A DNA stretch of 63,833 bases, counting the filler, from Stramenopiles sp. TOSAG23-3 (taxonomy: Eukaryota), in the NCBI GenBank assembly GCA_900128585.1. It is 27 parts of 27 records of this genome, joined end to end, with 100 filler letters (N's around TTAATTAATTAA, not from the genome) between each part and the next. Parts side by side here need not be neighbours in the genome. Positions count along the whole stretch, not along the records: positions 1 to 8,318 come from LT643037.1; 26 more parts are not named here. The stretch is one strand, 5' to 3'. Made by a program: the position numbers and the translations under genes. This document shows positions 1 through 54,100 of this stretch, piece by piece. Under the pieces are notes generated by a model. It worked only from the letters and a program-made list of their open reading frames with translations. It ran no database searches and was not told where the DNA came from. The number at the start of each line of letters is the position of its first letter. Positions within the stretch are counted from its first letter, which is position 1.

Positions 1-78
1 CACATACTAAGAGTATATTGATCGTATTAAAACATACTTGAACTGAAATTGTAATTGATATAAAATGAGAAGTCTTAA

Positions 79-318
79 ATGCCAAGGAATGTTGATTTTA
101 TAGATTTTTGGAACCACGCCACCGAAAAAAATAAACACGATTTTTTATATGTTGATTACGAAGCCGACGAGCCGTACAATATAAGAAAAAATTTCAATAC
201 GGTGCTGTCTTACCGTCCTGTCAGGAGCAAAAATATGGCCCAAAAAAAGAAAAAAGGCAGGAGCAATGATCCGGCCAAAGCTGTAGAAATCGAAGGCAGT
301 ACAAACGCTACGGCCTAA
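79..318 (+). pseudogene. C-terminal fragment of an A32/FtsK-like viral packaging ATPase
   Basis: FIDFWNHATEKNKHDFLYVDYE...NIRKNFN resembles the F-x3-Y/W-x2-AT-x3-Y/H-x-FLYID...KNFN tail of PLV/virophage ATPases. The frame is closed upstream and the Walker motifs are missing. Confidence 0.6.
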
Positions 319-345
319 AATTTATTTATATGGATATAGTATACA

Positions 346-1422
346 ATGGCCTTAAATATTTTTTTGCCAGGAAAACGAGGAGTCGGGTCAAACGCTGAAG
401 CGGGTATGTTGCATTCTGTACTTAGTCCGTATCCTAACGACATCCCTATCCTATTTACGGATTTTCTCGATTTGAACCGAATACCGAAAACAACAATTAC
501 AGACAAGCTTTTCAATATTGCACAAAAGTTGAACTTTTTTAAATATCACACTACAACGAATACAAAAACAGGTACCCCCCTCTTCAACATCGGAATTAAC
601 GCAAACGACCAGCTGTTTATAAAAACAGAAGCAGAAGACGAGGTCCTTGGAGGTGCTAATCCGCCAGCAATTTTAATCGACACAAATGGAGACGTGTATA
701 TAAACGGTTCGACCAGTTCTCAAACAAACGGCTACGTCTACGTTTACGATACAGTAGGCTTGGTGCCGTACAATAGAAAAAGTGCAAACATCGGACCATT
801 AGGAAATTGGACTGATCCAGCTACGGGTAATGAGCGATACGATAATATATTTTTTGGGGCGCCAATTGGTTCGTATTCGTGGAACGGAGTTACCATTCCA
901 ATTACCACGCCTTCGAATCAACGCATTTTAAATCAGTCGCCCATACCAGGTTCTGTAAATCCTGGTTTTACAACGTTTGCAACGCAAGCAGATCCGCTAC
1001 CAGTCGATTGCGTAGTTAATGGTGAGTTTTTCGGAGTCGCGCCTGCGCCTGATGGAGCTTTATTAAATAATGTTGGTCATACGTTTTCAAATGTACCAAT
1101 AACAAATAATTTTACAGCGAGTTATACATTAACTGTTGGAATCGTCAGGCAAATATGGAACGGAGTTGCACCGACTCCCATAACTAATGTCTTAGTCGCA
1201 CGACAAGATATTGATGTACCTTTTAGGGGTTCGTTTACTGGAACAGTTGCAAGTTTTAGTTGCAATTTTAATTTTAATATGACAGACGTTGACCCTGCAA
1301 CTGGTAATCCGCAAAGTTACATTCCTTTCTTCAATCACAATGGAATCATTTATCCTGCCACGGATGCGAACATAAGGTGGAGGAATGTTACTGTAACATT
1401 TACTACGAAAGCAAATCTCTAA
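346..1422 (+). CDS. Putative virion structural (fibre/spike or minor capsid-like) protein, 358 aa
   Basis: Intact ORF rich in T/N/P/G and beta-strand-like segments, 27 nt downstream of the ATPase tail; function inferred from context only. Confidence 0.45.
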   Translation: MALNIFLPGKRGVGSNAEAGMLHSVLSPYPNDIPILFTDFLDLNRIPKTTITDKLFNIAQKLNFFKYHTTTNTKTGTPLFNIGINANDQLFIKTEAEDEVLGGANPPAILIDTNGDVYINGSTSSQTNGYVYVYDTVGLVPYNRKSANIGPLGNWTDPATGNERYDNIFFGAPIGSYSWNGVTIPITTPSNQRILNQSPIPGSVNPGFTTFATQADPLPVDCVVNGEFFGVAPAPDGALLNNVGHTFSNVPITNNFTASYTLTVGIVRQIWNGVAPTPITNVLVARQDIDVPFRGSFTGTVASFSCNFNFNMTDVDPATGNPQSYIPFFNHNGIIYPATDANIRWRNVTVTFTTKANL

Positions 1423-1479
1423 GGAGCAAAATAAAAAAATATTAATTTGAAGGCAACCCCCTTCAGATTCATATCGATT

Positions 1480-2235
1480 TTAAAGAATATCATCGAATTT
1501 GTAGTCGATATAAGCGACGGAGTATTCTTCAAGTGTTTTATTTGCTAACACTCGTCTTATTTCAATTATGATTTTGTCTTCATATTTGTCTTGGTCTTCG
1601 TAAAAGTAATTGTTTAGCCAATTTTGAAAGCTGTACGATTTAATTTTCGAAATAATGTATTTGTCAACGATTCTAAGAATGTCATATCGGGTGTAACACC
1701 GTATCATATTAGGCTTTACAAGGCAAAATGCAAACTCATCGGTTGGTTTTGCCAAGTGAAAGCAAGGCGATAGAAATTTTTTAAATATTCCGCTAATAGC
1801 TAAGAAAGGTGCCTCAAAGTTTTGGGTGGTAACAAATTGATTGTACTCCTCGGATATTAAAACTTCTTTTAAGCTTCGAACGCCCTTGGCTTCTAATGGA
1901 TTGCGAGGAACTACACACCGTTCAATGCACCTATTCATTTTTGATTCGAGCAGAAGGAGTCGCTGCATAATAGTTTGCAAATCGGCGGCGGTGCAGGTGA
2001 TGGACGACGCATTTGAAAAGGTCATTAGGTATTTTGAATCATTTACCTTTATCAGCAGGTCGGCCCTGCTAATAGAAGACAATTTGCCTGGACAAACCTT
2101 CTTTTTTTTTAAATGATTTTTCAAAGAAATTTTCTGAGTGAATAAAGCTCCGCACCGCTCACATTTGAAAGGTCGTGGTTTGCTTACGTTCATAATGGTT
2201 TGTGTGTCGTTAACTATGGTCTCTGTTGATGTCAT
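1480..2235 (-). CDS. Viral-type C2H2 zinc-finger protein, about 251 aa
   Basis: FKCERCGALFTQKISLKNHLKKKKVC is the CxRC...HLxKKxxC finger common in large DNA viruses and PLVs, followed by a short coiled coil. ATG at 2235 preferred; the longer ORF's 5' extension is poly-T intergenic sequence. Confidence 0.7.
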   Translation of the reverse strand: MTSTETIVNDTQTIMNVSKPRPFKCERCGALFTQKISLKNHLKKKKVCPGKLSSISRADLLIKVNDSKYLMTFSNASSITCTAADLQTIMQRLLLLESKMNRCIERCVVPRNPLEAKGVRSLKEVLISEEYNQFVTTQNFEAPFLAISGIFKKFLSPCFHLAKPTDEFAFCLVKPNMIRCYTRYDILRIVDKYIISKIKSYSFQNWLNNYFYEDQDKYEDKIIIEIRRVLANKTLEEYSVAYIDYKFDDIL

Positions 2236-3366
2236 TGGTTGTATATAATATATAACATATAAATTTAAATAATTATAAATCAAATTTTTATAAAAAATTG
2301 TAAAGTTTAAAGAATATAAAGAATTAAAGAAAGAATCTATTAGAAAGAGGAGGAATAGAGGTAAAAAAGAAACGCCAGGAAAAAGAGAAGTTTCGCTGTT
2401 TACAAATTTACAAAAAAGGAAAAAAAAAAAAAAAAGTTTAAGAGGATTTTGAAAATTGTCAGGGAAAATTAAAAAAAAAAAAAAGTAATTGTAAAATTGT
2501 AAACAGCGAAGAAAAATAAGGAACAAATTGTCTACACAATTGAACGGTTTTCAAGAATTCAAACCATTAGCTCCTGAAAAAAAAATATAAAAAAAGATTT
2601 ATATTTTTTTTGTTTATTTTAGTGGGCTTTATAAAAATTATCGAATAAATACCCCTGAATCGAAGCCGCTCAGAATTTTAGCAGCCTTAGCACTCTTTCG
2701 AGATCGTTCAGAAATCCAATCAGTATTTGGGTCGCTATCTTCTTCACCATAATAGAATTCATCAAATCCATCTTGAAGGCTGTCTGTAGTCACATACGAT
2801 GAGGTTTTCTTCTTCGTAGAGCTTCATTAAATCCTTCTTAACCCTAACCCTCTTTTCAATTCTTTCTCCTCTCTCCATCTGTCGCACGGAATTCGCTTGG
2901 TGCCCCTATAACACCTTCCATTACTTGAAGTGTAACTTGGTGTGTAAAGACGGTCGATGGCTACTACCTTGGCGAAGAGGCGGAGGCCGGCCCAGATGGG
3001 GAGCTTCTCCTCCAAGCCGAGCGCGTCGCGGAAACGAAACGGGTTAGCCAGCTAGTCGTAGAGAAAAACAACAAGGTTGGGGAAATCGCGATAGACCAAG
3101 GCGTAGAGGATGTCCTCTGCGGGCGCATACGCTTGGAAGTGCCCACCCAGGACGAGGTCGCCACGTCGTTGATGGAGGCCAAAAAGGCCAGGCTGATGGC
3201 GGCCTACGCGATGTAGTAAACAATTAAAAAAAAGCGCAAATAAAAATTTAAATTTTTTAATTTTTTAAAAAACAAAATAAGGAGGAGTTTGGGTTCTTGA
3301 ACGGTTTTACCTTCTTTTTTTAAGGTGTGGAACGAACCACAAAATAGTAGTTACAATACACCGATA

Positions 3367-4242
3367 TCACATGGGATTGTATCTCGCCAGCATTTTGTGT
3401 ATCCGTGGAGTAACTAGGGTATCCCCAGGAGTTCCAATAACTGTGGTAACTTCCTCGTGGGACAGGCTCGAAGCATCGAAGGTATGAACGAAAACCCCCG
3501 CACTCTCAAGGGCTTCAGCGTATTCCTCCACGATTTGCCTACGCGCAAGGGTTCCCCGGCTCAGTAATAGATGGGGAGGGATTTGGTTGGGCCTGGAGCG
3601 GTATCTTTCCACATAAGTTAGTGGAGATGCCTCTTCCCAAATTTCCGGGTTATTGCCAAAAGCATATGTAGGGCCTCCTTTGGCGGGGACGTCAAATGCC
3701 TCAGTGTCAAGCGGCGCAACAAAGTTTATGCTAGATAAACCCAAACCGTGCTCAGCAAGGTATGATGCGTCAGTGCTGACCAATGAAACCAAATGTGCAC
3801 CAGCAGAGTGTCCGATGAGTGACAGGGAATCCAAGTCAAATCGGTCCAATACATAAGCGATGGCAGCTGCAACGTCAACCACAAAGTCTGGGTACATTAC
3901 ATTATTAGTCTTTGTTACCAGTCGATAGTTGACGCTCACAAATATGTAACCCAGTTCGTCACGAAAGTACCTTATCTTGTCTTGGATTTTATTTTTTTTG
4001 TCTCCAACGGCCCACTTTCCTCCATGGACATACATCACAATACGATCCTCCTGTGGCCCATCAGCTGGTGGCAGGTAAATGTCCAATGCTTGGTAATTCT
4101 TGGGGACACCCGGCGTATGGCTGTATCGCACATCCATTAAGCAAGACTTTGGAAATGCACATAGTCCTTGATTAGCTAACACGCTAGAAGCCGCGAAGGA
4201 GGATAGTAAGAAGACAAAGAATACACTTTTCTGTCTTGTCAT
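3367..4242 (-). CDS. Secreted alpha/beta-hydrolase (esterase/lipase, HSL/arylformamidase-like)
   Basis: Signal peptide, LDIYLP, oxyanion YVHGG, SVNYRL, nucleophile GHSAG, C-terminal His (LSHEEV). Confidence 0.9.
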   Translation of the reverse strand: MTRQKSVFFVFLLSSFAASSVLANQGLCAFPKSCLMDVRYSHTPGVPKNYQALDIYLPPADGPQEDRIVMYVHGGKWAVGDKKNKIQDKIRYFRDELGYIFVSVNYRLVTKTNNVMYPDFVVDVAAAIAYVLDRFDLDSLSLIGHSAGAHLVSLVSTDASYLAEHGLGLSSINFVAPLDTEAFDVPAKGGPTYAFGNNPEIWEEASPLTYVERYRSRPNQIPPHLLLSRGTLARRQIVEEYAEALESAGVFVHTFDASSLSHEEVTTVIGTPGDTLVTPRIHKMLARYNPM

Positions 4243-4421
4243 TGTAAGTTCGTTTACGATTACTTGTTTTCTTGTTGTTATACTTGTTACTTGCTAATTG
4301 GTGGGGTTTAAATAAAAACAAGTGCAACTACGAAAGCTTGAAATTGGATGATTTATACATCAAAATATAAATGTTTTACTTCGTTTTCGTTTCGTTTCGT
4401 TTCTTTCTTAAAAACAATAAA

Positions 4422-4424
<3 letters not shown>

Positions 4425-4456
<32 letters not shown>
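4425..4456. repeat. (CT)n microsatellite
   Basis: Uninterrupted CT dinucleotide run. Confidence 0.9.
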
Positions 4457-4459
<3 letters not shown>

Positions 4460-4820
4460 CAATTTTGATTAAATCGTTTTACTCTCGTTGCTTCGTGCAG
4501 GAACCATGTGTGATAGAAGGACCATCAATATTTTGGATCTGAAGTTGTTTTAAACTAACGCTGCTGTGGTGATATGATGAATAGAGCTTTAGATTGGTTG
4601 GAGCCGAGGCAAGTCCCTTTTGATACACACACGTACACAGCATCCTTTTATTTGAAGATAAGGAGCTGTGGCAAGTCCCGATACACACAGGTGCACAGCA
4701 CAGTTATAGTTGATTATCTTATATTTAAAAATAAAATTAGTAATAACAGCCAAATAGAAAGGGACTTCGATTAATACAAAAAAAAGATCGTAAAACTTTT
4801 TTGGTTAGTGAAGAAAAAAT

Positions 4821-4955
4821 GCGCTGAAATTATATGCTGTGTAATGTTATTAAAAAGTAAAAAAAAATATAAAAAAGATTATCCTCGATAAAAATATAAA
4901 TGGTGCTGAAACTATATGCTGTGTAATGTTATTAAAAAGTAAAAAAAAGATATAA
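4821..4955. repeat. ~50-nt direct repeat (GCTGAAAyTATATGCTGTGTAATGTTATTAAAAAGTAAAAAAAA) in the divergent intergenic region
   Basis: Copies at about 4823-4872 and 4905-4955. Confidence 0.85.
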
Positions 4956-5401
4956 TAATAAAATAGATTATATAAAAAAATAATATAAAAAAGATGATCG
5001 GAAAGAAGCCCCCCCCACTTTTTTTTAAACGAGGAGGGAGGCAAGGCGTTATTATTTTTTGCGCCAAAAAGAGGGGGGCCTTACTAATATTATCGCCATT
5101 ATATCTACACAGCACTATAAAAAAATAATTATTTATTTACTACAACACAGCATAAAAATAAAATAATATTTTAGTAAATAAATAATACAGCTACACAGCA
5201 TAAAAAGCAGTATTTTTTTTACTGCCAAAGGAGTTGGGCCGGACGTCTCGTACTGCCTTTACTGGTTACTTTGCGCGAAGTCAACAATTAATATTGTACA
5301 ACGAAAAATATCTCATCCAACAAACTCCGCGATGAATATTTAAAAACAACGTTTTCACACAACAAACGTATTTAAACTGCAAACAAACAAACAAAAATAC
5401 T

Positions 5402-6673
5402 ATGACCGAAATTGATATTTACGGCGACGAGGACGTCATTCTACTACCAAGCCCCCACATGGCGTGGGACGACGACGCGAAATGGAAGGCGGACTCGCGG
5501 CTATACAACGAGGAAACGGACGCATGGGTTAAGAAATTGGCAAGGAATCGCGACCGCGAGGTCACATTGAGCATTTTGATTAGCGATATGAACGATACGT
5601 TTGGAACGAAAGCTGGGAGATATCAAATAAAAAAATGGCGAACAAAGGCGAAAGAAGCTTACATGGCAGGCGAGCGTCGCCGTGGCATACGGCCAACCGA
5701 AGTTGTGGCGTCGAACGTTGTTGGGCATGCTAAAGCGCCGTTCACGGAGGCCGACGAAGGCAAATTGTGCAAGGTACGGCTTCAAACGAGAACGAGTTCA
5801 ACAGGAAGGGTTACACAGACGGGCTGGAACCAGCCGTATGAAGCCCAGATAATTCGCGTTAACAAAAATGGCACGTTTGACGCCTTCTTCCCTGGCCGGC
5901 CAATCACCAACCGATATGCAGAATTTTCGTCGGCACGAAAAATTCCAGTGATTGAAAACAATCCTAGTCGGCATTTTGAGCTGTTTGAGCAGTATGTCCA
6001 CGACGAAAAGCACCGTGAAAAGGCTCGTGAAAGAGAAAAGAAAAAGATGGAAGACGAGCTTGCTGTCTTAAGGAAAACTTTGGCCGTGTATCGATACAAG
6101 TTCAGGAACCAGCAAGGCGATGAACCGAAAACTTGGAAAGAGTTGCAAAAAATCGCAGACGACCAGTATTTATACTACGATGCAACAAAAAACGAATTCG
6201 ATATGTACGAGCAAGAACAAAACCTGGATATGGAGGAAGAAGATGACGACGAGTTCGGTTTGATCGACCCGTCCCAGGTAAAGGACGAGGACGCAGCAAA
6301 AAGCCTAAGCGCTCTCGGAAAGCGAAAAAAGCAGGAAGACCGCGTACGAGACGATGGCACTTCCGAACAACCTCAGGCGGTGGAAGAGGAGAAAAACCCG
6401 TATCTTGGAAAAAGATTGTTATACACTTTTGGAAGAAAAGTTAAAAGAAGAGGGAGAATGTCTACAGTTTACGACAAATATGTTGGAGAAGTAATCTCTG
6501 TCAATGACAAAGGTTTATACTACGCAGAATTTTCCACAAAAAATGGTAAACTGGTTGAAGACGAAGACTTTCAGAAAATAGAAAACGTAAAGGAAGCCAA
6601 GATAAAAAGGTTTATCAAAGCGTATGACAAGATGGCAAAGAAAAGTAAAGATATGGAACCGAATGAATACTAA
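5402..6673 (+). CDS. Charged 423-aa protein with two probable Tudor/SH3-fold domains
   Basis: GKLCKVR...WNQPYEAQIIRVNKNGTFDAFF and YLGKRLLYTF...YVGEVISVNDKGLYYAEF follow the Tudor-like strand pattern; separated by coiled-coil and acidic tracts. Confidence 0.6.
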   Translation: MTEIDIYGDEDVILLPSPHMAWDDDAKWKADSRLYNEETDAWVKKLARNRDREVTLSILISDMNDTFGTKAGRYQIKKWRTKAKEAYMAGERRRGIRPTEVVASNVVGHAKAPFTEADEGKLCKVRLQTRTSSTGRVTQTGWNQPYEAQIIRVNKNGTFDAFFPGRPITNRYAEFSSARKIPVIENNPSRHFELFEQYVHDEKHREKAREREKKKMEDELAVLRKTLAVYRYKFRNQQGDEPKTWKELQKIADDQYLYYDATKNEFDMYEQEQNLDMEEEDDDEFGLIDPSQVKDEDAAKSLSALGKRKKQEDRVRDDGTSEQPQAVEEEKNPYLGKRLLYTFGRKVKRRGRMSTVYDKYVGEVISVNDKGLYYAEFSTKNGKLVEDEDFQKIENVKEAKIKRFIKAYDKMAKKSKDMEPNEY

Positions 6674-6742
6674 AATTTAAATTAAAGTTTTATTTAACTA
6701 TACTATTTTTCTTTACGTCTTGTTTGCTTTCTGGAAAGGGTT

Positions 6743-8132
6743 TTATCCTACACCGCACCAATATCCCTCAAAATCACTTGTGCGAAAATGGTCTCCATAA
6801 AAGATCAACTGTGGTAACATTGTTTGGATAAACGACTGGTTGAATTGGAACCCCGAACCGCCTATACCCAAGTATTCCAAGTCTTTTAGTTGGTCAATGC
6901 TGGGGAAATCGCCGCTGAAATTGTTGTAACGCAGGTCCAACCGCTTCATCTTTGTTAATCTATTGATCCAAGGCAACGTGCCTTTCAATTGGTTGTTTCG
7001 GAGGTTGAGACACTCTAGGTTTGTCAAGTTTCTGAAGTGGTGAGGCACGGATGTATTCAACAGGTTGTTTTGGAGATATAAATGTTGCAACCCTGTCAAC
7101 CCGCTTACATCGATGGACGTCAACTGGTTGATGTGGAGATTTAAATATTGCAACCCTGTCAGCCCGCTTACATCGATGGACGTCAATTTGTTGCTGTCGA
7201 GAGATAAAAAATGCAACCCTGTCAGCCCGCTTACATCGATGGACGTCAATTTGTTGTCGTCGAGATCTAAACGTTGCAACCCTGTCAGCCCGCTTACATC
7301 GATGGACGTCAATTTGTTGTTGAATAGTAATAAATGTTGCAACCCTGTCAGCCTGTTTACATCGATGGACGTCAATTTGTTGGTGTGGAGATATAAATGT
7401 TGCAACCCCGTCAACCCGCTTACATCGATGGACGTCAATTTGTTGTTGTCAAGATCTAAAATTCGCAACCCTATCAACCCGCTTACATCGATGGACGTCA
7501 AGTCGTTGCTGTCGAGACGTAAATGTTGCAACCCTGTCAACCCGCTTACATCAATGGACGTCAATTGGTTGTTGTGGAGATTTAAATATTGCAACCCAGT
7601 CAACCCGCTTACATCGATGGACGTCAATTCGTTGTTGTGGAGATATAAAGTTTGCAAGCCATAAAATTTCCCAATACACTCCGTTGATAAGTTATAAACC
7701 AAATCTATACGCAAAACCGCCACTTTTGTCAACTGACAAACTGGAAACGTTTCCTTTCCAGTACCATAAAAATACACATTTCGTACATCATTGTTTCGAA
7801 AATAGTCCCCCATCAGCTTGGTTGGAAATTCTCTCAAACGGTTTAAGTCCCTACTTTCCACTGCTAAACTAACGGCCTCCAAATCATCCATATAAACTTT
7901 GCCTCTTTTCCATACATCATTTAAGTTATACAATGCGTTCATCTTAACATCTTTCACAGGATTTCTGGATACGTCTAACATTTTCAGTGGTACATCACTA
8001 AAACGAACAGTAAAATCCAATCTCTCTAATCTGTTCTCAGAAATATTCAAACGCTCAAGGTGTGGGAGTACCTTCAGAATTTCATCGACATCCTTTGTTG
8101 TAAAGTCCCCTCTGGACAAGTCTAAGTCCTTC
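6743..8132 (-). CDS. LRR protein with ~10 near-identical 21-aa repeats; 3' exon, 5' end incomplete
   Basis: GLQxLxLxxNxLTSIDVSGLT repeats followed by plant-type LRRs (NNQLKGTLP, NNFSGDFP). No ATG start; an acceptor-like TTAG and an AT-rich intron-like tract lie at 8133-8240. Confidence 0.9.
7061..7660 (-). repeat. 63-nt coding tandem repeat array, about 10 units
   Basis: ATCGATGGACGTCAA recurs every 63 nt (7109, 7172, 7235...). Confidence 0.97.
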
Positions 8133-8318
8133 TAAGCAAACTATATATAAATTTGTTTTAAATCAAAACGTACTATATAAAATATAAAAAATGAGAGTTT
8201 GAAAGCATACTATATAATTTGTTTTTTATATATATGTACGCTACATAGCAGCCCGCCAGAGATGGATGGACTGGCAGATGCGAATATGCCAGAGGAATGT
8301 CCTGAACGGGGTCGCCAA

Positions 8319-8418
8319 NNNNNNNNNNNNNNNNNNNNNNNNNNNNNNNNNNNNNNNNNNNNTTAATTAATTAANNNNNNNNNNNNNNNNNNNNNNNNNN
8401 NNNNNNNNNNNNNNNNNN
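8319..8418. other. Artificial contig linker N44-TTAATTAATTAA-N44 (first of 26; others start at 16724, 25127, 26752, 28376, 30000, 31623, 33245, 34866, 36486, 38102, 39716, 41330, 42943, 44552, 46161, 47769, 49377, 50985, 52592, 54199, 55806, 57413, 59019, 60625, 62230)
   Basis: Identical 100-nt spacer with stops in all six frames; flanking contigs decrease monotonically in length, so neighbouring contigs are not genetically linked. Confidence 0.99.
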
Positions 8419-9017: not shown

Positions 9018-9389
9018 ATGGGGCTGTGCGCTAGTTCGACCGTAAAATTAGACGATCCCGCGTCCCCTGCGAAAGCAAACCCGGTGGTTCCCTCCCCCGA
9101 CAATTCGTCGTCCAAGAACAAAGCAAGGAAAAGTAATGTGGCAAAGAAGCGAATGAGCCGTCCGGGTGCCAACACTGTGCAAAAATCGCGACGAGTTCCA
9201 AAGGGAGATGAAAAGTGGAGGAAAGGGCGGCAATCGTTCCGGGAACAGATGAAGAAAGATCGCATGAAGTTTATGAAAAAGAAAAGTGAGGGGGGCGGCG
9301 GCGATGTGGTTGTTGTGGTATCGTGCAAATCCCCGAAGAATGCTATAAAGTCGAAACAAGGCGATTTGGCGATGACGGACTACGACTAA
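9018..9389 (+). CDS. Small basic protein with N-terminal MGLCAS dual-acylation motif
   Basis: ATG-started GC-rich ORF; Gly2 and Cys4. Confidence 0.6.
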   Translation: MGLCASSTVKLDDPASPAKANPVVPSPDNSSSKNKARKSNVAKKRMSRPGANTVQKSRRVPKGDEKWRKGRQSFREQMKKDRMKFMKKKSEGGGGDVVVVVSCKSPKNAIKSKQGDLAMTDYD

Positions 9390-9568: not shown

Positions 9569-10492
9569 TTACCACACCTCGCCCTCCTCGTCGTCTTCCC
9601 CACTGCTGGAGTCGGAAACGGTCTTTCCGTACTTGGAAGCCTTCTTTTTCTTCTTCTTCTTTTTGTGCTTTTTCTTCTTTTTGTCCTTCTTGTGCTTCTT
9701 CTCTTTCTTTTCCTTGGAGTCGTTCAGCACCAGGCCCTCAGGGTTTTCCCTATGGATGGACTCATCGGCGTGCTCGTCCGTTCTTGCCCCGCCCACCCCC
9801 TGCTGCTTCTTCGCTACGAGCTTCAGCAGGTGCTTCTTTAAGTTTCCAGCTATGTCCCCGTACAGCCTGTTCCGCCTTGTCGCCTCGCTATCCCAGAACT
9901 GCGCCCCAAATATTCGCTCTTTCAAATGCAGCTGCATCTGAAACATTGGAAACAGCAATTTGTCGTTCCGCTTCGACATTTCCTCGAACATTTGGAGCGA
10001 CAGCGAACCGTCCCCAGATTCGTCCATCATCTTCTGAACGACACTGTACACGTTGTGGTTCGCTTTCCAGGTCGGGCCGTACACATCGGCAAACATTTCT
10101 TCGACGACGTCCGGCTTGATTCTATCGGTCTCCTCCGTGTCGTACAGGCTGAACGCAAAGCGCACGAACGTTTGCTTGCGAACCGTCATGAAGATCCACA
10201 GGGCAAGGATAAAAGCTTGAAAGTCTACACCCTCACGGTTCCCCAGGAAATGAAAACAACGGTCCGTGAAGTTCGTCCGGTCTACTTTAATGTACTTGTA
10301 GAACTGCTCTATCGTAAACGTATCCGTATTGTCCTTGTCGATCTTTTTGAAGAGCTGGTAAAACTTGTCCACCCCCTGGTCGTCCAACTCTAGAAACGAA
10401 TGGCATAAGTCATACGTGTCCTGCTCATGCCCCACTTTGCTTGGGTTCACCTCGAAGGCGTAAACTTTTTGTTTGCTTGCACACAGCCCCAT
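9569..10492 (-). CDS. Myristoylated EF-hand protein (calcineurin B/neuronal calcium sensor-like) with lysine-rich tail
   Basis: Starts MGLCASK; EF hands DKDNTDTFTIEQF, FAFSLYDTEETDRI, DESGDGSLSLQMF. Confidence 0.85.
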   Translation of the reverse strand: MGLCASKQKVYAFEVNPSKVGHEQDTYDLCHSFLELDDQGVDKFYQLFKKIDKDNTDTFTIEQFYKYIKVDRTNFTDRCFHFLGNREGVDFQAFILALWIFMTVRKQTFVRFAFSLYDTEETDRIKPDVVEEMFADVYGPTWKANHNVYSVVQKMMDESGDGSLSLQMFEEMSKRNDKLLFPMFQMQLHLKERIFGAQFWDSEATRRNRLYGDIAGNLKKHLLKLVAKKQQGVGGARTDEHADESIHRENPEGLVLNDSKEKKEKKHKKDKKKKKHKKKKKKKKASKYGKTVSDSSSGEDDEEGEVW

Positions 10493-11363
10493 CTCTACCC
10501 AGTCGGCGAACAAGACTTCAGACAAACGCACACAAGTATCTACAACGAAATATTTTCTGTCGGTTATGAAAATATGAGTGATGGACTCGTCGTACATATA
10601 TTAAAACGCACAACCTAAAGTTGTTGGGTTATTTTATGAAATATATAACGGCTAAAATTTAGTACGGGGTACTGATGATATAGAGGGCTATACGTAATAA
10701 TAGAAGAATAATAATAATAAAATAAAAAATTGGTTTTTTGTTGTTGTTGGTTCCTTTTCTTCTTTTTTTTTCTAAGAAAAATAATATGAGAGAGAAGAAG
10801 AAAATAAATAATATTACATACATTGCACAGCATGAAAAAATCGTATTTCTATAACACTAGTAATTACCGGAAGAAGAAGAGAAGAAGAAAGAACGAAAAA
10901 CTGGATTTGCTCCTTCTGATTCTGTTATGCAGTACTCGTAGTCCTGGCAAAATCAATGTTATTACCATACTACGAGTAGTCGGTCTAGCTAGTCCACGAT
11001 AACCTTTCTTTCTGCAATCTGCAATCTGGACGTCTAATTAGAATTAAAAGATGCCCACTTGTTTTTCCCTTGCTGTGTTACTACTATATCATTATTTTTT
11101 TAGCTAGAAAAATTTATAATATATACATACCATTGGGAAAGTTGGTTAAGGGGTTGTTTAACAAAGATGGGAAAGTTTTAACACCGTATTACCTACCGAG
11201 GAAATGGCCGACGCAAGAAGTACTACTTTCGAATTTAACAACTGTGTAACATTGGTCATACCCACAGACAGATACGGCCACCCGTTCCATACAAAAGTTT
11301 CAAACGATGAGAAAAGTTGTGTTTTATTTCCATTAAAAAAAAGGAACGCCATACTTTTACAAG

Positions 11364-16279: not shown

Positions 16280-16886
16280 TAGTCAACGCGGACACCGTTG
16301 GATGGAGCGACAAGAGGCTTTGCTTTCGCTCCTCTCCTCAATCTATACAAAGAAGTATATCAAAGCAAGTTTTAAAAAATAAAACTCCTGGAGAGCATCA
16401 ATTTAAACGATTCCTTATTCTTGAATCCAATTTAATTCTGTGGTGGTTAAGTTCACCATATTTTTTGCCACTTTACTTTTTAAATGGAAAGAACCACAGG
16501 TATTTATTTTTTCTTTCTTTTTATTAAAAGTATTATACCACCCCCTTCCTCGGTACGACGTACGTACAACAATAGAAAATTAAAATTAACATAATAATAA
16601 TAACACACCACTTCTAATAATAATAAAAATAATAAAACAACACAAAAACATTCCACTTCTTCTTCTCGATCAACAAGAACGCGAAGAAGAAAGAACACAG
16701 CATAACCAACAACAAAGAAGAAGNNNNNNNNNNNNNNNNNNNNNNNNNNNNNNNNNNNNNNNNNNNNTTAATTAATTAANNNNNNNNNNNNNNNNNNNNN
16801 NNNNNNNNNNNNNNNNNNNNNNNGGTCCACCCCCCCCCCCCCCCCACGCACGGGTCCGCAGCCGCTCTCTTTCTTGTTCGCGCTCG

Positions 16887-19362: not shown

Positions 19363-21868
19363 ATGGTGAAAATTCATTTAAAGAAGAAGGATGTGCTGTT
19401 GACGGTTTTGGAGTTTTTGAAGTCCAATGGCTACGTAGAGAGCATGAGGTGCCTGGAGCACGAGTCTGGGCTCTCCGTGGACAACTATGGGAACGATTTA
19501 GACTTTTTGCGGGAGCTCGTCCTTGACGGCCAGTGGGAGGATGCGGAGAATTTTGTTAGTCCATTGCGGAAGAAGGCCGGGGAGAGCGGGTTCAATTTTG
19601 AAAGAGTCATGTTCGAACTGCGAAAGCAGCGCTTTCTCGAACTCGTCGACGGGAAAGACCAGGAGGGCGCCGTGTTGGAGCTGACGGCAGGGTTGAAGGA
19701 GCTGGAAGGCAGATGCTCGAAAGAAGAGTTCAACAAACTTTGCTACTGCCTGACCTTGGAGAGCCTGTCGGACCACCCTGACTACTCCGCCTGGACCCCG
19801 TACCACGGCCGAATGGAGTGTTTCACGGCGATAAAGCATTTGTTTGATACCGTCTTCTCCGTGGAGTGGCGCGAGCAGAAAGAGACCATGCAGCGCGTAG
19901 AGCCCAACCATTTAATTACTTTATTGCAGCAGAGTGCCCTGTACCAGGCGAGCCTGTACATGGCCGCAACTTCCACTACGACGCTGCCGAACCCGATACA
20001 CTTTGATGTCCTCTCTCCGACGTTCAGGCCTCAGGATGCGAACGGAAAGGCGCTGGGGCCCCCTGGCCGACGGCCGCACGGGGAACAGTCGCTGGTGCCG
20101 GGCAACGTCATGCGCCACATGCAGCGAAAGCTGGGCGCGGGGGGGATCATGGGCGCACCGTTGCCGGTTCCAGGCGTCGTCCTCGACGAGGCGAACGCGC
20201 GAGGCGTCCGATCTTCGCCCGCGCGGCAGAGGGCGGGGCGAGCGGGCCAGCCGCTTCGCAGCTCCTGGGGATACGGCAACGGGAGGAACGCCCTGACGGG
20301 GAACGATGTGTCGACGCTTAAAAAGATGGCGCGAGAGTACGACAAGCCGAGGGAACCGTTGCCGCTGGAGGAGGCCAACAAGCACGCAGGGAAGAGGGCG
20401 ATGAAGTGGGAGATACCCCACGGCGAGAAAGATGAACCCATGCCGATCATCGACGAGGACGACAAGGACGGCGGGATGAACCTGCCGGGCGGCCCTGACC
20501 CCTCGTTGCCGACGACGAAGGAGGCCGGCCCTGCAGAGGAGGCGGCCGCGGCCGCCGGGGGCAAAACGACGGAAGAGAAGGCCGGGGCGTACGCCTCGAA
20601 AACGAGCGACCCGGACGCGCGAATGTTGGTAAAAGAGGTCGCGGACTCCGCCGACGACGCGCCCGCCGGGAAGACTTCGGAAGGCGCCGGCCACGCCCAA
20701 ATCCCGAAGCCCGTGGAGCGGGAAGGGCCGTTGGACGCGGGGCGGGTTCGAAAGCTAACCTGCTTGGCAATGAGCACGGAGTCCCAGCCCATCCGTACGG
20801 TTGCATTCTCTCCGAACGGGAAAAGCATCGCCATCGGGACGAACGGCTGCACGCTGAAGATATGCTCGGTCCCTGGGGAGCAGCAGTGCGACCAGATCTC
20901 ACGAGTCATCGGGCGGGCGGTCCCCGCCACGCTCAAGATTAAGACCACCGAAGTGTTCGAAGACCTTCACCTTGGGTCCGTGTACGCGGCGTCTTGGAGC
21001 CAGGACGGGAGCCTTATCGCGACGGGGTCGAACGACATGACGGTAAAGGTCACCCGAACGGGGACGGGGGGGGGACTGCACGGACGAGGCGAACTGCGTC
21101 ACCTTTGAGGGCCACGAGGGCACGATCCGCGACGTCGCGTTCTGCGGCGACAACAACCGGGTGGTGTCTGTGGGCGCGGGCGACTTTGGCGTCCGCGTCT
21201 GGGACTTGAGCGTCTCCGGGGAGGACAAAGCACCGCTCATGGTGCTGAAAGGGCACACGAACTCCATCATGGCGGTCGACTGCGGCATTACCGGGGAAGG
21301 GGGGAACACGATGGTCATCACGGCCGGGATGGACCGGACGATCCGCCTGTGGGACCTGCGGTTTCAAGCCTGCGTCGCCCGGCTCGGCTGCATCGGGGTC
21401 GGGGACAAGAAGTTTGGGGCCGCGGGGGGGGGGGACGCGGGCGAGGCCAGCAGCGAACAGGTCAACCAGAGCGCCATCCTGGCGTTGGCGACGAACCCGT
21501 TGACCCCGTGGACCGTTGCAAGCGGGCACAAGGACGGCGCCGTCTGCGTGTGGGATTTGAGGGCGCAGCGGCTCTCGTGGAGCCTGCGGCCCCACAGCGA
21601 CGAGGTTCGCAGCGTGGACTTTTCCCCCGACGGGCGGTGGATGCTCTCCGGCTCGTTCGATACCTCGATCAATTGCATCGATACGGACGTTTGGGAACGG
21701 CGAATCGTGAACACCTTCGAGAGCCATAAGAACAAAGTGTTGAAAACGGTATGGCATTCGCAGCGTCCTCTCTTTGCCAGTTGTTCCGCCGACAAGACCG
21801 TCAAAATTTGGGGACCCATCTTTTCTTCTTCCGCATCATCGATTGGCGAAGAGGAGGAAAGTCGTTAA
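19363..21868 (+). CDS. WDR47: LisH-CTLH plus C-terminal WD40 protein, WDR47-like; frameshifted in this assembly at a G9 run
   Basis: DVLLTVLEFL...SMRCLEHESG (LisH), DLDFLRELVLDGQWEDA (CTLH), EFNKLCYCLTL, HLGSVYAASWSQDGSLIATGSND, PHSDEVRSVDFSP. The frame changes at G9 21066-21074. Confidence 0.85.
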
Positions 21869-22735
21869 AAAAAAAACTGATTATATAGTATAAAAATATT
21901 AAATTTAATAAAAAGTGTAAAGGTTTTCAGCTTTCTCCAGCTTTCTTCAGCTTTCAGCTTTCAGCTCTCAGCTCTCAGCTCTCAGCTCTCAGTTTCGCTT
22001 GATTTTCTTCCTTCAGAAAATATGTACCACAGTCCACAGTCCACAGTCCACAGTTGGTGTTGAAACACATAAATATTTACAATATGAACACATCATCATA
22101 GTACAACATACGTACACTGAATAGGATTCTATATGTAATAAATGAGTTCATTGATTCATTTCTTTCTTCTTTTCTTTAAATCTGTCAATCTGCTTTAACC
22201 TAATTTCTATAATTAAGTATTATATATATTTTAATCTTTTAATTTAAATTAATAATATAAATATAAGATACGTTTTAATTATATTAATATTAATAGAGAT
22301 TATATATCCTTACTTTTATTATGGATTGGTTAAAATCTAAAAAATAGAAGAACAATAAAATTATCCATAAAAAATTAAAATACACACTATGGTACACTTA
22401 CACAGCATCTGATAAAATATAATAAAAAAAGAAGAAGTAAGTGAGTTACTATATAGTAGTGTTTATAATTATAATAGAAATTTTAAAGATATTAAGAAAC
22501 TTATGTGAATGCGTACATGAAAGATCTGTTTTATAATATACGATGAACAATGATTGGTTTGTAATTGAAGAAAAGCAAGCTGCAATGTTGGAATGAAAGA
22601 ATGAATATACTAGGTCGTAAAGAAAACGAACGACAGGAAACAAACAACGTCATTAGAGTAAACAAACATTCTACTAGTCGTTCTACAGTCGCATATATAC
22701 ACACAACTCTACCCCAGCCAACAGGAAATTGTTCA

Positions 22736-24850: not shown

Positions 24851-25279
24851 AAATCTAGCACACGAGTTCTACACGACAGGAAAAAACGAACAGTTAAAGT
24901 TACGCCAGTTACGAAGGAAATTGCAAACCTAGAATGTCTAAATCTAGATTTTCAGTTCGCAGTGACATTAATTTTAATTATCATACCAATTTTCTTGTTA
25001 AAAAAAAGTCTTATCATACGACGCCTTTTTGTGTTTTTAATAATTTTCAATTTTATGTTAGTTTGAATGATGAATACCAGAAGTCTTATTCTGGAACAAG
25101 GAGGAGTTTGGGTTCTTGAACGGTTTNNNNNNNNNNNNNNNNNNNNNNNNNNNNNNNNNNNNNNNNNNNNTTAATTAATTAANNNNNNNNNNNNNNNNNN
25201 NNNNNNNNNNNNNNNNNNNNNNNNNNCATTTGCCAAAATCCCAATGTCGGAGCTGAACGCGATCCATAACGACAAAGGG

Positions 25280-26751
25280 TTCCAGAAAAAAATTCAGAAG
25301 CTTATAATATTTTTTGAAATCTTGTTAAAACAAAAATTAAAGATTTTGATTTTAAATTTTTTTCTGATCGTGAATATTTTTTTACTGAAGTTAAAACTTC
25401 TTATCTTGAAATTAAAGTTACAGGAGACCTTTGAATGTATGATGGTTTAGATGCTAGTATGCAAGTAGAAAAACAAGTAATTAATTTTTTTAATGATTGG
25501 TCGGCTAAGCCTGGTATGCTTGACTTAGGTTACAAAGTAAAACATCATTATTCATCAGAAAATCATCCATTCACTTATAAATCTTCAGATGAGCTTGTAA
25601 ATAATGTAGATTCTACTTCTTATATTCTTAATGGAAAAGATTTAGAGTCTAAAGAAGACCTTACTTCTACAGAAAAAACTAAATCTGAAAATAAAAAAAA
25701 AGATAGTGATGATGATGATGGTAGTAATGGAGGTAATTCTGGAGAGGGATCTTCTTCTAATGAAGAAACTCCATCAGCAGAAACTGAAGTAGATACCACT
25801 TCAGTAGAAGATACTGTCAATAGTATTGTAGCTGAATTATTTGATTTTAATTGAGAAGTTTTATCAAATAGTTTAGTTTTAAATTTAGAACAATGAAATT
25901 TTTCTATTTATGGGACCATTATTATTGTTTTAAGTTTTTTAATTGGTACTTTATTTTATAAAATTAAAGGAGCTCCTTTTCATATTTGAGCCCCAACTAT
26001 TTATACTAGAATGCCTACAGGATCTATGGTAGTATTAGTTACTATTTTTACTTTAATTTTTAGTTTATATTTTTTTCAATTATTTTTTAAAATTTTTTAT
26101 TTATATTCTAATTTCTTTAGTCAATTTTTTATTTTAGGAGGAATTTTATCTTTAATTTTTGGATTTTTAGGAGCTTTTGATCAAAAATTATTAAAAAAAT
26201 TTTTTATTTATAGTTCTATAGGGCATGTAGCTTTCTTATTATTTTCATTTATTGCGCCTTATACTTTCCAAAGTGGAACTAGTTTACTTATGTATTTATT
26301 AATTTATTTAGTTTCAACTTTTTTATTATGGTTTTTAATTACACATAATACAAAAAAAGTTGAATTTTTATCTAATTTATTAGTTAATATTAAAGAAAAT
26401 TCTTTATATTTTTTTTTATTTGTTATTATAGTTTTTTCTATGAGTGGTATTCCACCTTTAGCAGGATTTTTTATTAAATTTGATATACTTTCAATTCTTG
26501 CTTTATCGAATGAATTTTTAATTTTATTTACTACTTTATTAATAACTGTAGCAAGTTTTTATTATTATTTAAGATTAGTAAAAATTTCAAGTTTTGAGAA
26601 TTTTAAATCATATTTACTCCAATTTTTAAAAATTGAAAATTTTTGAGTTTATATTCGTTTAGTATTTTTATTTGTATTCATTATGTTTTTATTATTCTTT
26701 CCTATTATTTTTGAACAAAGTTTTTATTACGTACTTTCTTTTATTTTTTAA
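25280..26751 (+). CDS. nad2: Mitochondrial NADH dehydrogenase subunit 2, 5'-partial, TGA=Trp
   Basis: YKIKGAPFHI(TGA)APTIY, KKFFIYSSIGH, FSMSGIPPLAGFFIKF, FYYYLRLVK. Very AT-rich; a single frame is open to TAA 26749-26751 if TGA is read as Trp. Confidence 0.93.
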
Positions 26752-52691: not shown

Positions 52692-54100
52692 GGCTCGCGT
52701 TTGTTGTTACCACTCGACCCGAAGTAAACCTCATGGAAAAATTTGAACGGGCAAATCTTTTCCCCAAAAAATTGGTCGCCCAAGATCGGAGAAACGTGGA
52801 CGATGTAAGCACCTTTTTGAGAGATGTACTGAACGGAAAACTCTCGAACAGCGCCGATTTGGAAGAAGCGGTAAAGATATTAGGAGGCAAAGCCGAAGGA
52901 CTCTTCCTGTACGCGCACCATGCTGTCACTGACCTGTTGCTAAATGAGGGAACGGTGGCGTTAGAAGATTTGAAAGCGTTTCCAAAGGGGATTGAAGAGT
53001 TTTACAGTGAACAATTCAAGCGTATCTTTGAAGGGGAAACGAAAATTAAGCGATCTTCTACGTTATGGAAGATTGTTGAATGTATTGTCGTTGCTGAGGA
53101 ACCGTTGCCATTGAGCGTCTTGGGGGCAATGGTTGAATTGAAAGAGGATGAATGGCTCGATGAATTTGTTCAAGGGCGTCTCTCTTCGTTATTTCCCACC
53201 ATCAATGAGACGGTTCGGGTGAATCACCAAAGCGTGGTCGATTGGTTGACGGACGAAAAGCGGAGGCGAAAACGGTTGTTTGTCGATGTAAAGAATGTCC
53301 ACAAACGCATGGGGGAATCGTGTCGAAGGATATGGGAACGGAAGAACAGCGCGAAGGACGGTTTTGAGTATGCTATGCGGTATTGTGTGGCTCATTTTTG
53401 CAAGGGTGGCAATGAGAAAGAAGCGCGAGAGGTCATGTTTACGTTTGACTGGTTGCTGGACCGTGCAATGTTAGGCCCTATTCATGCGTTGGTACTTGAT
53501 GGAAATCGTATTTTAAACAGAAAAGACAAAGCGTTTGAACTTTTGCACAGCGCCATCAAATTGTCAGTGCATGTGTTACAAAAGGATCCTAGTCAGCTGG
53601 GCGTACAAGTAATCAGTCGGTTGTTGACCCATTTGCATCATCCTGAGATAAAACAATTGGTGGAAACAATACGTAGTATGGAGGGCTGGTATCCCATGTG
53701 GCCAACCATGGAGCAAGCAGGTGGGCCATGTTTGGTTACCTTGGGGGGGCATTCTGTTAGTGTAACTTCCCTCGCGATACATGGAGAGAACATCATCAGC
53801 GGTTCATATGACAATACCATAAAAATATGGAATCGAGAGGGTGAATGTCTGAAAACGTTAGAGGGACATTCTGGGTATGTATCTTCCCTCGCGATACATG
53901 GAGAGAACATCATCAGCGGTTCAGGGGACAATACCATAAAAATATGGAATCGAGAGGGTGAATGTCTGAAAACGTTAAAGGGACATTCTAAGGCTGTATC
54001 TTCCCTCGCGATACATGGAGAGAACTTCATAAGCGGTTCACGGGACAATACCATGCAAGAGTGGCGTTACTTTTATACTGCTGATGGTAATATGAGATAG
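52692..54100 (+). CDS. NACHT/STAND-WD40 (NWD/HET-E-like) protein, 5'-partial
   Basis: VVTTRP (sensor 1), KAEGLFLYA, FPKGIEEFY, HQSVVDWL, YAMRYCVAHF, followed by near-identical WD40 repeats. Confidence 0.85.
53737..54056 (+). repeat. 117-nt coding WD40 tandem repeat, about 2.7 units
   Basis: AAAATATGGAATCGAGAGGGTGAATGTCTGAAAACGTTA recurs at 117-nt spacing. Confidence 0.95.

What the first reader, a model, noticed from the sequence alone, without database searches (positions are those of the whole stretch)
7061..7660. 63-nt LRR array whose variable codons are almost all NNT/NNC
Coding-strand codons per unit. Site 1: ACT,TAT,CAT,ATT,CAT,CAT,CGT,TTT,TAT,CAT. Site 2: TAT,AAT,CGT,GAT,TAT,TTA,GAT,TCT,AAT,TAT. 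Site 3: CAC,CAC,GAC,GAC,CAC,TTC,GAC,GAC,CAC,CAA. Site 4: AAC,AAC,AGC,AAC,ACC,AAC,GAC,AGC,ATC,AAC. Positions 1-2 vary freely while position 3 is fixed in 38 of 40. This resembles adenine mutagenesis of AAY codons by diversity-generating retroelements, but it is also what strong positive selection plus homogenisation gives. Against a DGR: scaffold adenines in TTA and GTA do not vary, some changes are at non-A bases, and no RT or template repeat is in the window.
Basis: partly seen in the sequence, partly recalled or inferred. Interest (0 to 1): 0.75.

Follow-up and report, generated by a model that had tools for sequence, protein, structure and literature searches.

The report
Hypervariable leucine-rich repeats, marine protist gene
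A gene of an uncultured marine flagellate holds ten almost identical leucine-rich repeats that differ almost only at the residues of the predicted binding face, which fits ordinary fast evolution of a binding surface and not a reverse-transcriptase mutator.

Summary
A minus-strand ORF (6743-8131) holds a 63-nt, 21-residue LRR array (7061-7660).

The frozen third base is not special. It varies as little as scaffold third bases do (2/40 vs 7/151, p=1). A fifth variable codon ends mostly in A. A second LRR array in the window keeps third bases G, C, T, T.

DGR mutagenesis is rejected:
- 84 scaffold adenine cells never change, including the adjacent Asn AAC codon.
- Seventeen of 30 changes in the variable codons start from C or T.
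- No RT or template copy was found.
- The host is a eukaryote near MAST-4.

Seawater metagenome contigs anchored in the unique 3' flank differ from the window mainly at the same codons.

Best reading: a highly internally conserved repeat array shaped by unit duplication or recombination plus diversifying selection on the concave binding face. It is a new member of a known kind. The window is 27 contigs joined by artificial spacers, so the true context is only 8.3 kb.

The parts
6743..8131 (-). Open frame of the LRR protein (462 codons stop to stop). It is the last exon or the 3' part of the gene, and the 5' part is missing from the contig.
   Evidence: ORF. Pfam LRR_4 E=3.5e-46 and LRR_8 E=3.2e-38; homologue P0054 residues 152-272 align to 8131-7769 at 83%, while its residues 1-151 have no match in the window.
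7061..7660 (-). Array of ten 63-nt units of a 21-residue LRR; the tenth unit contributes its first 11 codons. The scaffold is near-identical. Variable codons are 4, 6, 8, 9 and 11 of the register G1 L2 Q3 x4 L5 x6 L7 x8 x9 N10 x11. Unit k starts at 7660-63k.
6743..7060 (-). Unique C-terminal part with irregular plant-type LRRs (NNQLKGTLP, NNFSGDFP) and a C-terminal tail. It served as the anchor for metagenome contigs.
   Evidence: translation. (records 20, 26, 27 span the flank and the array); homologue P0002 ends alike.
8132..8318 (-). AT-rich stretch ending in ...ttgcttag just before the frame. It is probably the 3' part of an intron cut by the contig end. An assembly chimera cannot be excluded.
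   Evidence: sequence. table 7: DNA contigs of X2 and X4 and an RNA-library contig of X15 leave the window at 8132. By my hand translation they continue with letters that encode RILEYLSTTM, as in P0054.
8319..8418 (.). Artificial spacer (N44, TTAATTAATTAA, N44) that joins separate contigs. It is not genomic sequence.
   Evidence: 52 N-runs, that is 26 identical spacers in the window.

Best explanation
The array is the ligand-binding part of an LRR solenoid protein of a marine stramenopile close to MAST-4. Its ten units descend from one 63-nt unit.

The units are kept alike, or were recently multiplied, by unit duplication, unequal crossing-over and gene conversion. Amino-acid changes are kept at the four to five residues that face outward from the beta-strand on the concave side (x of LxxLxLxxNx).

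The third codon base is simply the inherited base of the ancestral codons (CAT or TAT, TAT, CAC or GAC, AAC, AAA). Silent divergence between units is low. The favoured residues Tyr, His, Asn and Asp interconvert by single changes at position 1.

Shown here: the anatomy, the excess of nonsynonymous change at these codons, purifying selection on the scaffold, and the concentration of strain differences in the same codons.

Inferred: that selection rather than a mutator drives the pattern, that unit shuffling contributes, and that the protein recognises a variable ligand (prey, parasite, virus or mating partner).
For: 1) Anatomy. The model has pLDDT 85-95 over the array. The six-residue strands (for example 199-204 = H L R L D S) cover exactly x4 to x9. 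The nearest solved folds are internalins InlJ and InlA and Leptospira LRR proteins.

2) Rates (Nei-Gojobori, all unit pairs). Variable codons: pN=0.452. Scaffold: pS=0.152 and pN=0.031. The variable codons therefore change about three times faster than silent scaffold sites, and the scaffold is under purifying selection.

3) Spectrum. Variable codons show 10 transitions and 20 transversions; the scaffold shows 11 and 4 (Fisher p=0.025). Changes start from A 13 times, C 11 times and T 6 times.

4) Residues. His 8, Asn 7, Asp 7 and Tyr 5 of 40. The same four lead at the first of the two hypervariable positions of Dictyostelium purpureum LRR proteins, and three of them are among the top four at the second (passages of PMC10392669).

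5) Independent repeat of the pattern in the same genome. A 66-nt LRR array at 54299-54722 keeps the third base at its variable codons in 5/6 (G), 5/6 (C), 5/6 (T) and 4/6 (T) units, while positions 1-2 vary.

6) Natural variants. Contig record 27 of run X4 spans 6968-7186. It has 1 difference in the 93 flank bases and at least 16 in the 126 array bases. Of those 16, 12 lie in the 30 bases of variable codons and 4 in the 96 scaffold bases. Record 20 of run X3 has 1 difference in 84 flank bases and 5 in 53 array bases, 4 of them in variable codons.

7) One X4 contig takes a path 126 bases (two units) longer through the array (tables 5 and 5c). This hints at a difference in unit number.
Against: - The rate estimates rest on few silent sites (about 12 in the scaffold and 1.8 in the variable codons). 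Units share ancestry, so counts of cells overstate the number of events. For example, units 1 and 8 differ at only one of the four variable sites.
- No site-model likelihood test was run.
- The metagenome evidence comes from short assembled contigs, not reads. Some may be paralogues rather than alleles, and 58 differences and 48 pieces were not shown.
- Unit-number polymorphism rests on one contig of depth 4.4.
- No ligand, localisation or expression is shown. Contigs of an oligo-dT RNA library cover five pieces, but DNA carry-over cannot be excluded.
- The 5' end of the gene is missing, so a signal peptide or signalling domain cannot be judged.
- The array comes from an assembly cut into short contigs, so unit order could be wrong.
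Confidence: 0.8

Rival explanations
1. Diversity-generating retroelement (or a like adenine-directed retro-mutagenesis): an RT copies a template with AAY at the variable sites and writes random bases at adenines.
For: 38 of 40 variable codons are NNY. Positions 1-2 of these codons hold A in 41 of 80 cells and any base otherwise (the cell count is mine, from the codon lists). Taken alone, that is what an AAT/AAT/AAC/AAC template would give.
Against: - Nine scaffold adenine columns (84 cells), among them the Asn AAC codon next to variable codon 9, never change.
- The fifth variable codon is AAA-based and varies at all three positions.
- Strain variants also change third bases (for example CAA to CAC, plus third-base changes in TAT and ATC).
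- The second array keeps a G-ending codon.
- No template copy was found.
- No RT was found in 44 of 62 ORFs of 150 aa or more. Only 8.3 kb is true context.
- The host is a eukaryote. The abstract of PMC5006420, seen in the listing, names viruses, bacteria and archaea as DGR hosts.
- The target is an LRR fold. That DGR targets are usually C-type lectin or Ig-like is my recollection.
Confidence: 0.02
2. Relaxed constraint only: the exposed residues are free to drift and no positive selection is needed.
For: The scaffold is clearly constrained (pN/pS 0.2). Exposed LRR positions tolerate most residues. The silent-site sample is small, so a ratio near 3 has a wide error.
Against: - pN at the variable codons (0.45) exceeds scaffold pS (0.15) about threefold.
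- Transversions are in excess relative to the scaffold.
- Residue use is strongly skewed: His, Asn, Asp and Tyr make 27 of 40.
- Anchored strain variants differ at 12 of 30 variable-codon bases against 1 of 93 flank bases.
Confidence: 0.08
3. Another targeted or somatic process, for example deaminase-driven hypermutation or lamprey-VLR-like assembly from cassettes.
For: Variation is confined to a few codons on a uniform scaffold. One contig has a different unit path. The strain variants of units 8 and 9 match no unit of this array (my comparison).
Against: - The spectrum is not that of a cytosine deaminase: C>T 4, C>G 4, C>A 3, A>N 13 and T>N 6 of 30.
- The array is complete and in frame in the germline contig.
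- No cassettes flank it within 1-8318.
- No raw reads were available to look for heterogeneity within a sample (laid contigs only).
Confidence: 0.04
4. Assembly artefact: the array is a collapse or chimera of alleles or paralogues in a fragmented assembly, so the pattern is not that of one gene.
For: The window is 27 contigs joined by spacers. Three other repeat arrays end at contig ends. Repeats of 63 nt are hard to assemble from short reads.
Against: - The array is in frame with no indels over 9.4 copies.
- A run that is probably the source holds 0.92 of the sampled words.
- Independent seawater metagenomes hold pieces with the same scaffold and variable codons.
- A wrong unit order would not create the contrast between scaffold and variable codons.
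Confidence: 0.05

Closest known systems
Repeat domains with high internal conservation in fungal NOD-like receptors (Podospora het-d/het-e/NWD WD40; ANK and TPR of other fungal NLRs). Passages read in PMC1805685 and PMC4986451.
   Same: Units are near-identical at the DNA level. Three to five positions per unit on the interaction surface are under positive diversifying selection. Homogenisation is by unequal crossing-over or gene conversion. Repeat-number polymorphism occurs.
   Different: Those repeats are WD40, ANK or TPR; the authors found no LRR in fungal NLRs. They sit behind a NACHT or NB-ARC domain, and RIP is discussed as a source of mutations. Here the repeat is an LRR, no NOD domain is seen in the part that is present, and exchange between loci could not be tested.
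Hypervariable-repeat LRR proteins of Dictyostelium purpureum and Flavobacterium psychrophilum (Altae-Tran et al. 2020, PMC10392669). Passages and section 6 read.
   Same: LRR units have a constant scaffold and a few hypervariable residues that form one face of the solenoid. In D. purpureum, Tyr, Asp, His and Asn lead at the first hypervariable position, the same set as here; Cys replaces His in the top four at the second. In F. psychrophilum, strains differ in repeat number and sequence through recombination.
   Different: D. purpureum has two adjacent variable residues, against four to five here. The F. psychrophilum proteins are bacterial surface proteins in a tandem gene locus of about 22-residue units. 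There is no sequence relationship beyond the LRR motif.
Ectocarpus LRR-ROCO and NB-ARC-TPR genes (Zambounis et al. 2012, PMC3341825). Passages read.
   Same: It is a stramenopile. LRR modules are under positive selection at solvent-exposed concave-face residues. Modules are shuffled and vary in number.
   Different: There each LRR is a separate 72-nt exon and shuffling is of exons, and the LRRs are fused to Roc-COR. Here ten units lie in one uninterrupted exon and no ROCO part is seen.
Diversity-generating retroelements
   Same: Only the NNY look of four codons per unit.
   Different: No RT, no template repeat, scaffold adenines invariant, LRR fold, eukaryotic host (see membership test).
Listeria internalin J (PDB 3bz5), best Foldseek match
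   Same: LRR solenoid. That InlJ has a 21-residue repeat length is my recollection.
   Different: 27% identity over 346 columns. It is a bacterial surface protein with a cysteine ladder, and it has no DNA-level homogeneity that I know of.

Membership tests
Leucine-rich repeat superfamily | Match to LRR profiles and the LxxLxLxxNxL motif with a beta-strand over xLxLxx | tested here: met
   Pfam LRR_4 E=3.5e-46 and LRR_8 E=3.2e-38. Model strands cover x4 to x9. LRR solenoids lead the Foldseek list.
Diversity-generating retroelement target | DGR-type reverse transcriptase near the target | tested here: not met
   No RVT family in 44 of 62 ORFs of 150 aa or more. All four other long ORFs on the true contig 1-8318 were scanned. 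The whole genome is not held, so a distant RT is not excluded.
Diversity-generating retroelement target | Template repeat: a second, invariant copy of the variable region | tested here: not met
   The scaffold word is found only in the array. Outside it the best unit match is 34 of 63 and blastn-short hits are 16 bases or fewer.
Diversity-generating retroelement target | Variation confined to adenine positions of the template, with all template adenines at risk | tested here: not met
   84 scaffold adenine cells are invariant, including the Asn AAC codon. Third-base and non-A changes occur within the array and among strains.
Diversity-generating retroelement target | Host is a bacterium, archaeon or their virus | tested here: not met
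   Eukaryotic gene set (Fip1, Rb-like, CLASP, cGMP-dependent kinase type, PP2C). The best named relative of a neighbouring-contig protein is a MAST-4 stramenopile at 85% identity.
High-internal-conservation repeats under concerted evolution and diversifying selection | Units near-identical at the DNA level | tested here: met
   438 of 453 scaffold cells equal the consensus. TRF gives 86% matches over all columns.
High-internal-conservation repeats under concerted evolution and diversifying selection | A few positions per unit with nonsynonymous excess, on the interaction surface | tested here: met
   pN 0.452 at codons 4, 6, 8, 9 against scaffold pS 0.152. These positions lie in the concave-side strand. 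This is a crude count method, not a likelihood site model.
High-internal-conservation repeats under concerted evolution and diversifying selection | Repeat-number polymorphism between individuals | tested here: inconclusive
   One X4 contig has a path two units longer, at depth 4.4. No contig spans the array.
High-internal-conservation repeats under concerted evolution and diversifying selection | Exchange of units between paralogous loci | not testable with these tools
   No genome is held. Only one close relative (P0054) was found for the non-repeat part.
NOD-like receptor / STAND | NACHT or NB-ARC domain fused to the repeats | tested here: inconclusive
   None in the 458 residues present, nor by eye in homologues P0002 and P0054, which are LRR throughout. 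The 5' end of this gene is missing.
Lamprey VLR-type somatic assembly | Incomplete germline gene flanked by donor LRR cassettes | tested here: not met
   The array is complete and in frame. There are no further unit copies in 1-8318 or elsewhere in the window.

The most novel reading that the evidence does not exclude
Uncultured MAST-4-like marine bacterivores carry a germline repertoire of recognition proteins built from highly internally conserved repeats. In this window that means at least two LRR arrays with hypervariable binding faces and an APAF-1-like WD40 protein with the same design. The repertoire diversifies by unit shuffling plus positive selection, as fungal NLRs do. That would amount to an innate non-self or prey-recognition system in a major group of ocean predators.
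Probability: 0.2. Interest if true: 0.55.

Novelty: new member of a known kind. Interest (0 to 1): 0.3.

Why it matters
It removes a false lead: NNY codons in a homogeneous repeat array are not a footprint of a retroelement mutator. A frozen third base is what young repeats under selection for amino-acid change give.

On the positive side, it shows that an uncultured marine heterotrophic flagellate has binding proteins whose surface differs between natural strains, while the rest of the gene is nearly the same. Such genes are candidates for recognition of prey, parasites, viruses or mates in organisms that cannot yet be grown. The same 64 kb of contigs holds three more arrays of the same design.

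Tried and rejected
- Whole-genome search for an RT and a template: not possible, because no genome is held.
- Rfam scan of the window: no family.
- Protein search with the whole protein: the list is dominated by bacterial LRR proteins matched through the repeat. Only P0002 (43%, full length) and P0054 (81%, N-terminal part) look like true relatives. Neither carries an organism name.
- Search with the non-repeat N-terminal 152 residues: only P0054.
- Metagenome loci L001-L014: 30-45% identity, with 66- or 69-nt arrays of other LRR types. They were no use for a close comparison.
- Viral contigs: no relative and no exact scaffold word.
Parts of the array without cover (roughly 7190-7520 in most runs) say nothing.
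- Expression: contigs of one oligo-dT RNA library lie on five pieces. I do not count this as proof of transcription.
- Splicing at 8132: the joined form also stands in DNA runs, so it is not evidence of splicing.
- Earlier notes of this scan: nothing for this genome or sequence.
- Papers: the listings showed no eukaryotic DGR. In one search the two MAST-4 papers listed have 0 occurrences of 'leucine-rich repeat'. I read the listings only, and supplements were not seen.

Full report
WHAT IS THERE

Tandem Repeats Finder reports one array at 7064-7657 with period 63, 9.4 copies, 86% matches and no indels. It lies in a minus-strand open frame, 6743-8131 stop to stop. Pfam calls this frame LRR_4 (E=3.5e-46) and LRR_8 (E=3.2e-38).

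38 of 40 end in T or C. A 24-base scaffold word occurs nine times, only inside the array, with 0 expected by chance.

HOW UNUSUAL IT IS

Cells that differ from the unit consensus:
- The four variable codons: position 1, 16/40; position 2, 12/40; position 3, 2/40.
- The 16 scaffold codons: 5/151, 3/151 and 7/151.

The concentration at positions 1-2 is very strong: 28/80 vs 15/453, p=2.5e-15. This figure treats cells as independent, which they are not.

The frozen third base, however, is no more frozen than scaffold third bases (2/40 vs 7/151, p=1.0). Each site keeps one base (T, T, C, C) and never mixes T and C. That is what descent from one ancestral unit with little silent divergence gives.

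Half of the codons of this ORF outside the array are NNY (128 of 258). Four ancestral NNY codons are therefore a 1-in-16 event by my arithmetic. Starting from CAT, TAT, CAC and AAC, only 13-20% of viable amino-acid-changing single steps fall on position 3. Two of 30 is then not a significant deficit (P=0.04-0.23, depending on transition bias).

It is A-ending and varies at all three positions.

AGAINST A DGR

- Nine adenine columns of the scaffold (84 cells) never change. They include both A's of the invariant Asn codon AAC that directly follows variable codon 9.
- Within the variable codons, changes start from A 13 times, C 11 times and T 6 times.
- No template-like copy exists outside the array. 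The best ungapped match of the unit is 34 of 63, and blastn-short finds at most 16 bases.
- No reverse-transcriptase family was found in the 44 of 62 ORFs of 150 aa or more that I scanned. The 18 not scanned mostly overlap, on another frame or strand, ORFs that were scanned.

The context is eukaryotic: Fip1, an Rb-type domain, CLASP, a cyclic-nucleotide-dependent kinase, PP2C and an ABC-D transporter. A WD40 protein on another contig of the window is 85% identical to a protein that EukProt labels Stramenopile MAST-4; the next named hits are 70% or less. The abstract of PMC5006420, seen in the listing, names viruses, bacteria and archaea as DGR hosts.

The window is not one molecule. It holds 52 N-runs, that is 26 spacers of N44-TTAATTAATTAA-N44, which join 27 contigs.

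True context for the array is only 1-8318. No whole genome is held. Absence of an RT in the window is therefore weak evidence on its own. The adenine argument is the strong one.

SELECTION

Nei-Gojobori counts over all unit pairs give these values:
- Variable codons: pN=0.452.
- Scaffold: pS=0.152 and pN=0.031.

The variable codons have thus changed about three times faster than silent scaffold sites, while the scaffold is under purifying selection. The variable codons are rich in transversions (10 transitions, 20 transversions) against the scaffold (11 and 4); p=0.025.

His, Asn, Asp and Tyr make 27 of the 40 residues. All four are NAY codons that interconvert by one change at position 1. This explains, without a mutator, why the walk stays in the NNY box. 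Third-base transversions would give stop, Gln, Lys or Glu.

The same four residues lead at the first hypervariable position of Dictyostelium purpureum LRR proteins, and Asp, Tyr and Asn are among the top four at the second (passages of PMC10392669).

STRUCTURE

A single-sequence AlphaFold model has pLDDT 85-95 over residues 155-355. Its six-residue strands, for example 199-204 (H L R L D S), span x4 to x9.

That x4, x6 and x8 point to the solvent on the concave face is established LRR knowledge, which I recall rather than tested. The best Foldseek matches are internalin J (3bz5), internalin A and Leptospira LRR proteins.

NATURAL VARIANTS

One run holds 0.92 of the sampled words and is probably the source. 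Seawater and marine metagenomes of other studies hold 0.22-0.35. Laid contigs of X2, X3, X4 and an oligo-dT RNA library X15 give two informative pieces anchored in the unique 3' flank.

Record 27 (X4, 6968-7186):
- 1 difference in 93 flank bases.
- At least 16 differences in 126 array bases.
- Of those 16, 12 lie in the 30 bases of the variable codons of units 8 and 9, and 4 lie in the 96 scaffold bases.

Record 20 (X3, 6977-7113):
- 1 difference in 84 flank bases.
- 5 differences in 53 array bases, 4 of them in variable codons.

Across all listed rows in the array, the changed coding-strand base in variable codons is A 9 times, T 6, C 4 and G 2 (my count). Third bases change too (CAA to CAC, and third-base changes in TAT and ATC).

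The variant units match no unit of this array (my comparison). One X4 contig takes a path 126 bases, two units, longer. Unit turnover by recombination probably adds to point substitution.

Limits:
- These are contigs, not reads.
- Some may be paralogues.
- 58 differences and 48 pieces were not listed.
- No contig spans the array.

GENE MODEL

The frame has no start codon near its 5' end. The homologue P0054 (a marine metagenome protein) matches 8131-7769 at 83% with its residues 152-272. Its first 151 residues match nothing in the window.

At 8132 the DNA contigs of X2 and X4, and a contig of the RNA library, leave the window. By my hand translation they continue with letters that encode RILEYLSTTM, as in P0054.

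The window instead reads ...ttgcttag before the frame and ends at the spacer 187 bases further on. Either this strain has an intron there and the contig ends inside it, or the contig is chimeric at that point. I cannot tell which.

THE SAME DESIGN ELSEWHERE IN THE WINDOW

- A 66-nt LRR array (54299-54722, six full units IVDVAPLATLVNLxxLxLxxNx) varies at positions 1-2 of four codons. It keeps their third bases G, C, T, T in 5/6, 5/6, 5/6 and 4/6 units. A G-ending frozen codon is one more point against an AAY template.
- An APAF-1-helical-domain plus WD40 protein (52733-54100) has 117-nt WD40 units at 91% identity. Its first two units differ only at codons 1, 4, 5, 7, 21 and 39.
- An RNI-type LRR protein (59168-60676) has 84-nt units at 90%.

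All three arrays lie close to contig ends, and two of them run straight into a spacer.

COMPARISON WITH WHAT IS KNOWN

This is the design described for fungal NLR repeats with high internal conservation. There, near-identical units are homogenised by unequal crossing-over or gene conversion, a few surface positions are under positive selection, and repeat number is polymorphic (passages of PMC1805685, and PMC4986451).

The same design has been described for LRRs:
- In the stramenopile Ectocarpus (PMC3341825).
- In D. purpureum and Flavobacterium psychrophilum (PMC10392669).

Earlier notes of this scan on phage, giant-virus and bacterial LRR arrays reached the same reading. They are leads, not support.

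What is new here is only the host, and perhaps the number of such arrays in it. One search listed two MAST-4 papers with 0 occurrences of 'leucine-rich repeat'; I saw the listing only.

VERDICT

- DGR is rejected.
- Diversifying selection on a homogenised LRR array is the best reading (0.8).
- It is a new member of a known kind, of modest interest.

Noticed in passing
window 8319-8418 and 25 further places (e.g. 16724-16823, 25127-25226, then about every 1610 bases to 62230-62329): Each gap is N44-TTAATTAATTAA-N44, so the window is 27 separate contigs joined by an artificial stop-in-all-frames spacer. The contigs are three of about 8.3 kb, most of the rest about 1.5 kb, and the cut pieces at the window's ends. 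Gene neighbourhood across spacers is not real.
   Followed up: yes
window 54299-54722 (-), ORF 54243-55016: A second LRR array of 66-nt units (IVDVAPLATLVNLxxLxLxxNx), six full units, cut by the contig end. Its scaffold is near-identical. Four variable codons keep their third base (G, C, T, T) while positions 1-2 vary.
   Followed up: yes
window 52733-54100 (+), repeats 53746-54054: A protein with an APAF-1 helical domain followed by WD40 units of 117 nt at 91% identity. The first two units differ only at a few codons (4, 5, 7, 21, 39). This is a STAND-type protein with highly internally conserved WD40 repeats, as in fungal NWD genes, and it lies close to the contig end.
   Followed up: partly
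window 59168-60676 (+), repeats 60263-60492: An RNI-type (LRR_6) protein with 84-nt units at 90% identity. Two units are identical except in the xxLxLxx stretch (ETLSLNS vs KKLWLSS). It is cut by the contig end.
   Followed up: partly
window 26011-26646 (+): An ORF matching the NADH:quinone oxidoreductase / Mrp antiporter membrane subunit family (PF00361, E=7e-18) on its own 1.5-kb contig. It may be a mitochondrial or foreign contig among nuclear ones.
   Followed up: no
window 8132 (-): Metagenome DNA contigs and an RNA-library contig continue the LRR frame upstream without interruption. The window has an AT-rich stretch ending in an acceptor-like ttgcttag instead. This is either an intron presence/absence difference between strains or an assembly chimera.
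   Followed up: partly
window 9018-9389 (+) and 9569-10597 (-): Two ORFs contain MGLCAS, a motif that looks like an N-myristoylation signal (my recollection). In 9018-9389 it is the N-terminus. In 9569-10597 it lies about 46 residues inside the listed ORF and would be the N-terminus only from an internal start. The second ORF has EF-hands and a long Lys-rich tail.
   Followed up: no
window 20001-22000: GC content of 0.63 against about 0.40 for the rest. The stretch holds WD40-coding ORFs with several overlapping antisense ORFs.
   Followed up: no
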